DNA from: Bacilli bacterium
GTDB taxonomy: Bacteria; Bacillota_I; Bacilli_A; ML615J-28; CAG-313
Length of the DNA: 64,000 bases
Direction of reading: 5' to 3'
Assembly (NCBI GenBank): GCA_017937305.1
Contig: JAGBDV010000001.1
Coordinates: forward strand, 66,237 to 130,236
Position 1 is the stretch's first letter; every line of letters begins with the position of its first letter. Positions 23,347 through 23,506 of this stretch are shown one piece after another. The notes under the pieces were generated by a model. It saw only the letters and a list, made by a program, of their open reading frames with translations. It was not told where the DNA came from and did no database searches. Both the position numbers and the translations under genes were made by a program.

Positions 23347-23380
23347 AAAAAAATAGAAGGCATATTTTACTATGCCCTAT
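23347..23380 (-). terminator. Attenuator terminator of the riboswitch expression platform
   Basis: ATAG-GGCATA/TATGCC-TT-CTAT plus a U7 tract, located upstream of the start codon at 23318. Confidence 0.75.
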
Positions 23381-23422
23381 ATTTTTGTAAATTATTAAAA
23401 GGAAGAAAATTACAAAAAATAC

Positions 23423-23489
23423 AAGGTATAGTGTGACATATGGAGTCACGTAGAAACATCTTAACCATAATTTAAGATTATATAGCCTT
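23423..23489 (-). ncRNA. Purine riboswitch aptamer (C at discriminator position 74, guanine-type)
   Basis: AAGGCUAUA-UAA-UCUUAA(AUUAUGG)UUAAGA-U-GUUUCUAC-GUGAC(UCCAUAU)GUCAC-AC-UAUACCUU; L2/L3 kissing UGG/CCA. Confidence 0.85.
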
Positions 23490-23497
23490 ATGTATTT

Positions 23498-23506
23498 ATT
23501 ATATCA
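23498..23506 (-). promoter_or_regulatory. Extended -10 promoter driving the riboswitch leader
   Basis: TGATATAAT about 9 nt upstream of the aptamer. Confidence 0.7.

What the first reader, a model, noticed from the sequence alone, without database searches (positions are those of the whole stretch)
23347..23506. Guanine-type purine riboswitch controlling a secreted protein / peptide / lipopeptide operon
Seen: extended -10, then a purine aptamer with intact U22, U47, U51 (GUUUCUAC) and C74, then a terminator just before the start codon. P3 is 5 bp, the J1/2-P2 region is one nt shorter than in the xpt aptamer, and P1 has a bulge. Established: this class usually controls purine synthesis, salvage or transport genes; some variant (2'-dG) classes are linked to extracellular nuclease-type genes. 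Inference: this surface module responds to purine status, perhaps in nucleic-acid scavenging, and the compact aptamer may have altered specificity.
Basis: partly seen in the sequence, partly recalled or inferred. Interest (0 to 1): 0.76.

Follow-up and report, generated by a model that had tools for sequence, protein, structure and literature searches.

The report
Guanine riboswitch gating surface-protein/peptide operon
A genuine guanine-sensing RNA switch of the ordinary class sits in front of an operon for a secreted binding protein and two small peptides rather than purine genes, so this gut bacterium probably makes a surface module only when purines run low.

Summary
Rfam's Purine model matches window 23505..23409 at 53.7 bits (cut-off 37). 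U22, J2/3 GUUUCUAC (U47, U51) and C74 are intact. An extended -10 promoter precedes the aptamer. A terminator/antiterminator platform of the OFF type follows it and ends 29 nt before the start codon.

The operon encodes:
- a 507-aa secreted protein: a CBM-like jelly roll (D1), a beta-trefoil (D2) and a C-terminal domain (D3);
- a 41-aa peptide with a YxxP leader;
- a 60-aa lipoprotein.

The same leader sits next to maf in 6 of 11 species genomes of the genus and on several metagenome contigs. It is 84-92% identical where Maf protein is only 75-81% identical. The cargo protein differs between species, and one genome keeps the leader with no cargo.

The idea of altered specificity is not supported. 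No junction base differs from guanine-I. The 2-nt shorter L3 also occurs in the other two purine riboswitches of this genome, including the one before xpt.

Nucleic-acid scavenging remains possible but weakly supported. D1 and D2 occur fused to Endonuclease I elsewhere, but those genes carry no riboswitch, and the folds look lectin-like.

This is a new member of a known class with an atypical regulon.

The parts
23498..23506 (-). Extended -10 promoter element TGaTATAAT (TG at 23506-23505, TATAAT at 23503-23498). The likely transcription start is about 23491-23489.
   Evidence: Read from the sequence. TGnTA(t/a)AAT/TATACT is kept in all 10 orthologous leaders. No -35 match was found. The start site is inferred, not mapped.
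23409..23505 (-). Rfam RF00167 (Purine) match, full model 1-102.
   Evidence: 53.7 bits against a gathering score of 37.
23423..23489 (-). Aptamer three-way junction. P1 5' strand 23489-23481; J1/2 U22 A23 at 23480-23479; P2/L2 at 23478-23458 (A24-U extra pair, UCUUAA/UUAAGA, L2 AUUAUGG); J2/3 GUUUCUAC at 23457-23450; P3/L3 at 23449-23433 (GUGAC, U-CCAUA-U, GUCAC); J3/1 A73 C74 at 23432-23431; P1 3' strand 23430-23423.
   Evidence: cmscan alignment. The minimum-free-energy fold of the aptamer alone reproduces the junction at -14.1 kcal/mol. Covariation in P2 and P3.
23369..23432 (-). Antiterminator. The P1 3' strand plus linker pairs with the linker plus the terminator 5' strand, giving about 22 pairs around a conserved central hairpin.
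   Evidence: -16.8 kcal/mol, z -3.6. It is part of the unconstrained minimum-free-energy fold of the leader. Between the window and L024, a changed base on each strand keeps both pairs intact (U-A/A-U in L024, U.G/G.U wobbles in the window).
23347..23378 (-). Intrinsic terminator: stem AGGGCAUA/UAUGCCUU (23378-23357), loop GUAAAA, then CUA and U7 (23353-23347).
   Evidence: Conserved in all orthologs.
21795..23318 (-). Gene 1: a 507-aa secreted protein. It has a signal peptide (cleavage about VNA/E), D1 at aa 33-180 (CBM-like beta-jelly-roll), D2 at aa 212-360 (beta-trefoil-like) and D3 at aa 362-507 (alpha/beta, always next to the peptide gene).
   Evidence: ORF. No Pfam or NCBIfam family. 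Homologs. AF2 models. Foldseek. D3 is shared with the cargo proteins of sister species.
21656..21781 (-). Gene 2: a 41-aa peptide, MNKQYENPTIEIVEF...DFWE, with a YxxP leader. It has a GGAGG ribosome-binding site and starts 13 nt after gene 1.
   Evidence: A peptide of this kind follows every homolog of gene 1 examined. The leader resembles the LPP/lasso RRE motif described in PMC13381572.
21469..21651 (-). Gene 3: a 60-aa lipoprotein with lipobox LVSC, an acidic spacer and the C-terminal motif SGSTGWLPWV.
21441..21464 (-). Terminator at the end of the operon (bidirectional hairpin AAAAGAGCUC-AAUU-GAGCUCUUUU).
23537..24094 (-). Upstream neighbour maf (nucleotide pyrophosphatase). It is the conserved landmark of the locus and is not under the riboswitch.
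   Evidence: Pfam Maf, E 2.5e-56. Maf precedes the riboswitch in all loci with upstream sequence.

Best explanation
This is a functional guanine-I riboswitch (the class of B. subtilis xpt, RF00167) that works as a transcriptional OFF switch.

Mechanism. Transcription starts at an extended -10 promoter immediately 5' of P1. When guanine is abundant (hypoxanthine and xanthine would bind more weakly), the ligand is clamped by U22, U47, U51 and C74. P1 is then stabilised. The terminator 5' strand is left free, the hairpin at 23378-23357 forms, and RNA polymerase stops at the U7 tract. When purines are scarce, the P1 3' strand and the linker pair with the terminator 5' strand. This long antiterminator lets polymerase read into a three-gene operon.

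The operon encodes a secreted three-domain binding protein (CBM-like D1, beta-trefoil D2, D3), a 41-aa peptide with a YxxP leader, and a 60-aa lipopeptide ending in GWLPWV.

What is shown: the aptamer, its conservation and covariation, the two competing folds, the operon structure, and the conservation of the leader in front of changing cargo.

What is inferred: the ligand, the polarity in vivo, and the purpose. My committed reading is that the locus is a purine-starvation-induced expression slot for a surface binding module. The proteins all end in D3 and are paired with leader peptides. The module most likely helps the cell hold on to a purine source such as extracellular nucleic acid or cell debris. 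I am confident about the switch and much less so about the purpose.
For: Aptamer:
- 53.7 bits against a cut-off of 37, with canonical U22, GUUUCUAC and C74.
- 96.4% of cells paired; 4 compensatory pairs in P2 and P3; 0 of 500 shuffles reach these values; slid controls reach at most 54%.
- the aptamer alone folds to the three-way junction.

Platform:
-. The unconstrained fold (-33.3 kcal/mol) contains the antiterminator and no terminator. Enforcing the aptamer (-28.9 kcal/mol) lets the terminator form. The 4.4 kcal/mol difference is of a size that ligand binding and tertiary docking could plausibly supply.

Conservation:
- Riboswitch hits at 54.6-60.1 bits lie before homologous operons on independent contigs and in genome G010.
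- The leader is also next to maf in G003, G005, G006 and G009.
- The leader is 84-92% identical in nucleotides where Maf protein is 75-81% identical.

The operon is a unit:
- Gaps of 13 nt and 4 nt between genes and a single terminal terminator.
- The protein-plus-peptide pairing is kept in all homologs.

Canonical specificity:
- The xpt riboswitch of the same genome shares the short L3.
- Swapping L2-L3 did not change selectivity in a related class (PMC6847200).

Hints of a nucleic-acid link:
- Endonuclease_1 fused to D1 and D2 in P0007, P0009, P0010 and P0080.
- Weak PF01336 OB-fold hits in the cargo of G006 and G010.
- purH is absent from this genome and from G010.
Against:
- This copy scores lowest among the orthologs. 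It has a C.C mismatch or bulge in P1 and lacks 2 nt of L3, so it could be weakened.
- An A24-U pair at the base of P2 is kept in all cargo-bearing orthologs (the cargo-less G005 remnant lacks the U); it is unusual and its effect is unknown.
- Evidence against the scavenging purpose:
  - D1 resembles CBM6/35/36 modules only weakly (best E 3.5e-3, TM 0.40-0.48), and D2 resembles beta-trefoil lectins. This favours glycan binding.
  - The Endonuclease I fusion genes have no riboswitch.
  - The OB-fold hits are below threshold, and a PDB profile search did not confirm them.
  - Four of the six genomes with the slot do have purH, so the slot is not tied to purine auxotrophy.
  - The operon holds no nuclease, phosphatase or transporter.
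Confidence: 0.8

Rival explanations
1. The aptamer has shifted specificity, for example to 2'-deoxyguanosine, guanosine or another guanine derivative. It would then report DNA or RNA breakdown products rather than the free base, which would fit an extracellular module.
For: The gene association is atypical. The extra A24-U pair at the base of P2 is kept in all cargo-bearing orthologs. The L2-L3 loops are non-canonical: L2 is AUUAUGG and L3 is CCAUA. In the 2'-dG-I class of Mesoplasma florum, distal L2-L3 and A24-equivalent differences do contribute to selectivity (PMC6847200). The 2'-dG-II class is linked to endonuclease I and ComEC (PMC8872408).
Against: Every described variant changes junction bases: U51G plus insertions (xanthine-II), J2-3 and J3-1 insertions (guanine-II), changes in all three junctions (2'-dG-III), loss of U47 (8-oxoG) and C74U (adenine) (PMC9295807, PMC10556655). 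Here J2/3 is GUUUCUAC and J3/1 is AC. The short L3 is shared with the xpt riboswitch of the same genome, and orthologs have a normal L3. The platform is an OFF switch, which would be odd for a sensor of a substrate.
Confidence: 0.1
2. This copy is a decaying relic. The P1 mismatch and the L3 deletion have crippled ligand sensing, so the leader now acts only as a constitutive partial terminator or does nothing.
For: It has the lowest bit score of the orthologous set, 53.7 against 54.6-60.1. There is a C.C mismatch in P1. L3 lacks 2 nt. In G005 the same leader survives with its cargo deleted, so the locus does erode.
Against: All ligand-contact and junction bases are intact. An alternative P1 register gives 8 pairs with one bulge. 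The same L3 deletion is found in independent samples of the species, in G009 and in the housekeeping purine riboswitches of this genome. The changes between the window and L024 keep the antiterminator and terminator paired through wobbles. The leader is more conserved than the neighbouring maf.
Confidence: 0.08
3. The switch works as described, but the operon has nothing to do with purine acquisition. It would be a glycan-binding adhesin and peptide-display (or RiPP) module that uses the guanine pool only as a cheap proxy for nutritional or growth state.
For: D1 resembles CBM6/35/36 jelly rolls and D2 resembles beta-trefoil lectins. D1 travels with chitobiase-C and Fn3-associated domains in many gut bacteria. 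The cargo N-terminal modules are swapped freely while D3 and the YxxP peptides stay. A PqqD-type RRE lies 5 kb away, and YxxP leaders are RRE ligands in LPP and lasso systems (PMC13381572). purH is present in four of the six carriers.
Against: Endonuclease I fusions of D1 and D2 exist. There are weak OB-fold signals in two cargo proteins. The other purine riboswitches found in the genus sit before purine permeases, xpt, a BMP lipoprotein, a YgjV-like membrane protein, a MATE-like transporter and an unknown 433-aa protein, so the annotated ones fit a coherent salvage regulon.
Confidence: 0.4

Closest known systems
Guanine-I riboswitch of Bacillus subtilis xpt-pbuX (Rfam RF00167; structures 1U8D/4FE5)
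   Same: Three-way junction; U22, U47, U51 and C74; J2/3 GUUUCUAC; J3/1 AC; L2 GG to L3 CC kissing pairs; a terminator/antiterminator OFF platform in which the P1 3' strand is shared with the antiterminator.
   Different: L3 has 5 nt instead of 7. An A24-U pair extends P2, whereas A24 is unpaired in xpt (PMC6847200). P1 has a C.C mismatch or bulge. The regulated genes encode a secreted binding protein and two small peptides, not purine salvage or transport.
2'-dG-II riboswitches (Weinberg et al. 2017; env1 structure, PMC6847200)
   Same: The same scaffold. Those riboswitches are linked to genes acting on extracellular DNA (endonuclease I, ComEC; PMC8872408), the theme proposed here.
   Different: 2'-dG-II has C at positions 47, 48 and 51 and a 2-nt insertion in J3/1. 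None of these is present here. The Endonuclease I relatives of this protein have no riboswitch.
2'-dG-I riboswitches of Mesoplasma florum (Kim, Roth & Breaker 2007)
   Same: They come from a small-genome relative of the Bacilli. The L2-L3 interaction keeps only the two G-C pairs and otherwise departs from xpt (PMC6847200).
   Different: The M. florum core junctions are heavily altered, whereas here they are canonical.
LPP (linear polyphosphorylated peptide) RiPP clusters of Bacillota (PMC13381572)
   Same: The operon peptides carry a YxxPx[IV]...F[DE]T..S-like leader. A discrete PqqD-type RRE lies 5 kb away, followed by two ORFs that earlier notes read as an S26/SpI peptidase and an HprK-like kinase.
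   Different: The precursors are scattered and paired with surface proteins instead of lying inside the biosynthetic cluster. Neither the kinase nor the peptidase was recognised by Pfam. No riboswitch control is reported for LPPs.

Membership tests
Guanine-I riboswitch (RF00167) | Score above the curated Rfam gathering threshold over the full model | tested here: met
   53.7 bits against 37, model positions 1-102.
Guanine-I riboswitch (RF00167) | P1/P2/P3 three-way junction supported by covariation | tested here: met
   96.4% of cells paired; 4 pairs changed on both sides in P2 and P3; 0 of 500 shuffles reach this. The aptamer alone folds to the junction.
Guanine-I riboswitch (RF00167) | Ligand-contact bases U22, U47, U51 and C74 | tested here: met
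   cmscan alignment: UAA, GUUUCUAC, AC. Invariant in 8 orthologs apart from U48C, which is a tolerated position.
Guanine-I riboswitch (RF00167) | Junction lengths: J2/3 of 8 nt and J3/1 of 2 nt, with no insertions | tested here: met
   J2/3 and J3/1 have canonical length. One extra U lies 5' of G46 and can pair with A24 as a seventh P2 pair.
Guanine-I riboswitch (RF00167) | L2-L3 loop-loop docking (G37-C61, G38-C60 and the A/U quartets) | tested here: inconclusive
   GG in L2 and CC in L3 are present. L3 is CCAUA (5 nt) and L2 is AUUAUGG, so the outer quartets cannot be canonical.
Guanine-I riboswitch (RF00167) | Binds guanine with high affinity (hypoxanthine and xanthine about 10-fold weaker) | not testable with these tools
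   Needs in-line probing or ITC.
Guanine-I riboswitch (RF00167) | Expression platform that couples P1 to an intrinsic terminator | tested here: met
Guanine-I riboswitch (RF00167) | Usual association with purine synthesis, salvage or transport genes | tested here: not met
   The downstream genes have no such domains. This is a typical feature, not a defining one.
Adenine riboswitch | U at position 74 | tested here: not met
   C74 is present.
2'-dG-I / -II / -III, xanthine-II, guanine-II and 8-oxoG variant classes | Class-specific junction changes: C51/C47-48 and a J3/1 insertion; U51G plus insertions; J2-3 and J3-1 insertions; loss of U47 | tested here: not met
   J2/3 is GUUUCUAC and J3/1 is AC. 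Class definitions are taken from PMC9295807, PMC6847200 and PMC10556655.
LPP-type RiPP precursor (for the 41-aa peptide) | YxxP leader, plus a discrete RRE, an SpI peptidase and an HprK-like kinase in the genome | tested here: inconclusive
   The YENP leader is conserved. A PqqD RRE lies at 16864-17139, E 9.5e-16. The adjacent 137-aa and 232-aa ORFs gave no Pfam hit.

The most novel reading that the evidence does not exclude
The maf-adjacent leader is a purine-starvation-gated expression slot whose cargo is exchanged between species. It always drives a secreted protein ending in D3, together with YxxP-leader (LPP-like RiPP) peptides and a GWLPW lipopeptide that dock onto D3 to build a surface display module. 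The variable N-terminal binders (D1, D2, Big_2, OB-like) would capture extracellular nucleic acid or purine-rich debris. If so, this would be the first riboswitch-controlled RiPP-type precursor. It would also be a modular answer to how small-genome gut Bacilli respond to purine shortage at the cell surface.
Probability: 0.2. Interest if true: 0.7.

Novelty: new member of a known kind. Interest (0 to 1): 0.45.

Why it matters
Guanine riboswitches are textbook regulators of purine synthesis, salvage and uptake. Here a canonical one has been fixed for a long time in front of a surface-protein and peptide operon. The leader is more conserved than the neighbouring housekeeping gene, while the cargo behind it changes. 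This extends the known purine regulon to the cell surface in uncultured herbivore-gut Bacilli. It also gives a simple, testable handle (guanine) on a family of secreted proteins and leader peptides whose function is unknown. Finally, it offers natural aptamers with a 5-nt L3 for studying how much of the loop-loop dock is really needed.

Tried and rejected
- Plus-strand reading: rejected. The Rfam hit and the genes are on the minus strand.
- Other Rfam families in the region: only sub-threshold microRNA and sRNA matches (best E 0.049), some overlapping the antiterminator hairpin.
- Full-length homologs in 60 relatives: none outside this genome, only single-domain matches.
- Riboswitch before the Endonuclease I-D1-D2 genes or before the distant homologs P0015 and P0033: none.
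- Purine auxotrophy as the rationale: purH is missing here and in G010 but present in G003, G005, G006 and G009, which also carry the slot. The correlation is rejected.
- PDB sequence-profile searches with D1, D2 and the OB-like segment: nothing significant.
- The D1 fold search gave only weak CBM-like matches.
- D3 against the N-terminus of the 802-aa protein: only E 0.008 over 46 aa.
- Weinberg et al. 2017 could not be fetched. Its gene list is cited second-hand from PMC8872408.

Full report
**The observation**

The region was read on both strands. A scan of the whole window against Rfam gave one riboswitch hit. RF00167 (Purine) matches the minus strand at 23505..23409 with 53.7 bits, against a gathering score of 37 (E 2.4e-6). 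A permissive rescan of 23250-23650 found nothing else of note.

The alignment shows J1/2 UAA, J2/3 GUUUCUAC and J3/1 AC. U22, U47, U51 and C74 are therefore all present.
- P3 is GUGAC/GUCAC (5 bp) closed by U.U, with the loop CCAUA.
- cmscan places a 1-nt gap at the first P2 position.
- P1 has a C.C mismatch in the Rfam register, or 8 pairs with a bulged C in the register AAGG(C)UAUA/UAUACCUU.

An extended -10 element (TGaTATAAT, 23506-23498) lies just upstream. A terminator follows, with its stem at 23378-23357 and then CUAU7 ending at 23347. The start codon is at 23318. Only the strand needed stating.

**Is it real and under selection?**

The genome is a 1.43-Mb, 72%-complete MAG and holds three RF00167 hits.

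The 507-aa downstream protein has close homologs only on metagenome contigs. I fetched those contigs. The same riboswitch scored 54.6-60.1 bits before the homologous gene in L010/L012, L013/L014, L015 and L018, and also in L006, the same-genus genome G010 fetched; L024/L025 carry a leader 98% identical to the window's by alignment. It always lies directly after maf.

A survey of 61 related genomes, followed by fetching of the same-genus hits, showed the maf-adjacent leader in G003, G005, G006 and G009 as well. That makes 6 of 11 species genomes of the genus.

Eight distinct aptamers form standard pairs in 96.4% of cells. Four pairs change on both sides, all in P2 or P3. None of 500 shuffles reached these values, and slid controls reached at most 54%.

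The 145-nt leader is 84-92% identical in nucleotides in lineages where Maf protein is only 75-81% identical.

**Mechanism**

- The aptamer alone folds to the three-way junction at -14.1 kcal/mol.
- The unconstrained fold of the leader (-33.3 kcal/mol) pairs the P1 3' strand and linker with the terminator 5' strand. This gives a roughly 22-pair antiterminator at 23432-23369, which on its own folds at -16.8 kcal/mol with z -3.6.
- When P1, P2 and P3 are enforced, the terminator hairpin forms and the energy is -28.9 kcal/mol.

This is the classical xpt-type OFF design: ligand locks P1, the terminator forms, and the operon is silenced. Between the window and the 97%-identical relative L024, one base differs on each antiterminator strand; both pairs stay intact, as U.G and G.U wobbles in the window.

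Ligand identity and polarity in vivo are inferred from these features. Nothing was measured.

**Is the compact aptamer a specificity variant?**

The literature defines every known variant class by junction changes:
- adenine: C74U;
- 2'-dG-II: C47, C48, C51 and a J3/1 insertion;
- xanthine-II: U51G plus insertions;
- guanine-II: insertions in J2-3 and J3-1;
- 2'-dG-III: changes in all three junctions;
- 8-oxoG: loss of U47.

(Sources: PMC9295807; PMC6847200; PMC10556655.) None of these applies here.

The 2-nt shorter L3 is real. Two independent samples of the same species carry it (L024/L025), and so does G009. Other orthologs of this very leader have a normal 7-nt L3, such as CCGAAUA or CCAAUUA.

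The other two purine riboswitches of this genome also have 17-nt P3 hairpins. One precedes xpt and a BMP lipoprotein. The other precedes a YgjV-type membrane protein. Among 45 distinct aptamers from the order, the P3 hairpin length is 21 nt in 24, 19 nt in 11 and 17 nt in only 5. Those five are the three from this genome, one from the same species, and G009.

So the compaction is a species-level trait that housekeeping riboswitches share. It is not a mark of new specificity. Swapping L2-L3 did not alter selectivity in a related class (PMC6847200).

One feature remains unexplained. A24 can pair with an extra U 5' of G46 in all eight cargo-bearing orthologs (the cargo-less G005 remnant lacks this U), whereas A24 is unpaired in xpt.

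**What is controlled?**

The operon runs from 23318 to 21469 and ends at a strong terminator at 21464-21441.

Gene 1 encodes a 507-aa secreted protein with no Pfam or NCBIfam family.
- AlphaFold gives three domains. D1 modelled alone reaches pLDDT 94.9.
- D1 is a beta-jelly-roll. Its best PDB matches are CBM6/35/36/15 modules, and they are weak (best E 3.5e-3, TM 0.40-0.48).
- A ~150-column stretch, which I assign to D2 from its many short strands, matches beta-trefoil lectins with probability 1.0.
- D1 and D2 are mobile modules. They are found at 60-70% identity in hundreds of gut-bacterial proteins. They mostly accompany chitobiase-C and Fn3-associated domains. In four proteins they accompany an N-terminal Endonuclease I domain.
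- Those nuclease genes carry no riboswitch.

Gene 2 encodes a 41-aa peptide, MNKQYENPTIEIVEF...DFWE. Gene 3 encodes a 60-aa lipoprotein ending in SGSTGWLPWV.

**A conserved slot with changing cargo**

The N-terminal part of the protein behind the leader differs between sister species:

| Genome | What follows the leader |
|---|---|
| G003 | a 494-aa protein with different N-terminal modules |
| G006 | a 660-aa protein with Big_2 and a weak OB-fold hit (PF01336, E 0.028) |
| G009 | a lipoprotein and a 478-aa protein |
| G010 | a lipoprotein and a protein of more than 687 aa: D1, Big_2, a weak OB hit (E 0.0055) and Flg_new |
| G005 | the leader and its terminator only, with no cargo at all |

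Two things stay constant. First, the protein ends in a D3-like domain: phmmer detects D3 in the G003 protein (E 1.6e-7); in the G006, G009 and G010 proteins, where phmmer found no hit, I see only a visually similar C-terminus. Second, one or two peptides of 41-46 aa follow, with the leader M.K.Y..P.IEI[IV]EF and aromatic C-termini (FWE, FWN, NWF, WIWQ, GWLPWL).

Earlier notes of this scan proposed that these peptides are precursors of an LPP-like RiPP pathway encoded at 16864-18254, and that D3 is their docking domain.
- I confirmed the PqqD-type RRE (E 9.5e-16).
- I confirmed the conserved YxxP leader. It loosely matches the published LPP motif YxxPxVLxHQxIxFETxxS (PMC13381572).
- I confirmed the adjacency of D3 and the peptide genes across species.
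- The proposed peptidase and kinase ORFs gave no Pfam hit. The D3 similarity to the N-terminus of the 802-aa protein is marginal.

**Purpose**

In this genus the other purine riboswitches sit before Xan_ur_permease transporters, xpt, a BMP lipoprotein, a YgjV-like protein, a MATE-like transporter and an unknown 433-aa protein. The annotated ones fit a coherent salvage regulon, and the surface operon belongs to it.

An OFF switch means the operon is expressed when purines are scarce. Capture of extracellular nucleic acid would fit, and it echoes the 2'-dG-II link to endonuclease I and ComEC (PMC8872408). Other notes of this scan point the same way, but they are leads only. The direct evidence is thin:
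- the domain fusions and the sub-threshold OB hits were not confirmed against the PDB;
- the folds look lectin-like;
- purH is absent here and in G010 but present in four other carriers of the slot.

I therefore give high confidence to the switch. I put roughly one chance in three on scavenging, and similar weight on a glycan-binding display module that merely uses guanine as a nutritional cue.

**Context and limits**

By LysS similarity, public relatives are uncultured gut MAGs labelled Erysipelotrichaceae, Bacilli, Mollicutes or Acholeplasmatales.

**Verdict**

This is a true guanine-I riboswitch and a new member of a known class. Its regulon is atypical and interesting, and the slot-like conservation of the leader is notable. 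The claim of altered specificity is not supported.

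Noticed in passing
G000 contig C10, locus L001 1501-1596 (-) and 1257-1492 (-): A second purine riboswitch of this genome (54 bits) precedes a small Imp-YgjV-type membrane protein (PF10688, E 1.3e-7). The ATG behind the AGGAGG site is one base out of frame with the conserved ORF, so this is either an assembly indel or a real frameshift. In G003 and G006 the ortholog is about 200 aa long and has a GNAT-like tail.
   Followed up: partly
L001, L002 (the window) and L003, compared with L026-L068: All three purine aptamers of this species have 17-nt P3 hairpins (5-nt L3). 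In relatives the lengths are 19-21 nt in 38 of 45 aptamers. For two of the three, the orthologs in sister species have the normal 7-nt L3. This parallel loss of about positions 62-63 is unexplained.
   Followed up: partly
L057 (G005 contig C48) 1001-1250: The maf-adjacent riboswitch and its terminator are intact (59.7 bits). They are followed directly by the operon-end terminator and the convergent peptidase M42 gene, with the cargo genes deleted. This is an orphan riboswitch remnant.
   Followed up: partly
window 21656-21781 and 21469-21651; L018 4794-4928: The 41-aa peptide and the 60-aa lipoprotein belong to one motif system. In L018 a 44-aa peptide combines the YxxP leader (MNKKYESPVIEIIEY) with the lipoprotein's C-terminal SGSTGWLPWI. 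In G006 and G009, peptides with this leader end in GWLPWL.
   Followed up: partly
window 16864-18254 (+): A PqqD-type RRE (E 9.5e-16) is followed by a 137-aa ORF and a 232-aa ORF with a GTGKST P-loop. Earlier notes read these as an S26/SpI peptidase and an HprK-like kinase of an LPP-like pathway. Pfam did not recognise either of the two.
   Followed up: partly
window 58261-60826 (-) and 61077-62546 (-): A second YxxP-leader peptide (48 aa, MERKKMNKNYETPSIEIIEY...GFFE) lies directly upstream of an 802-aa secreted protein and has no riboswitch. Next to it is a 489-aa lipoprotein with Big_2 and an HSDGDH motif that looks like a ComEC-type metallo-beta-lactamase. That last reading comes from the sequence alone and Pfam did not confirm it.
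   Followed up: partly
window 22773-23231 (D1) and homologs P0005-P0120: D1 (about 150 aa, in no Pfam family) is 60-70% identical between this Bacilli MAG and proteins labelled Bacteroidaceae, Paludibacteraceae and Clostridia. That is unusually high for such distant phyla and suggests recent horizontal spread of the module among gut bacteria.
   Followed up: partly
L068 (G010 contig C5) 1001-3854: A high-scoring purine riboswitch (82 bits) precedes an unannotated 433-aa cytoplasmic protein (no Pfam hit) and a 428-aa membrane protein. A paralog of the 433-aa protein also follows the purine permeases in L064.
   Followed up: no
I did not examine it.
   Followed up: no
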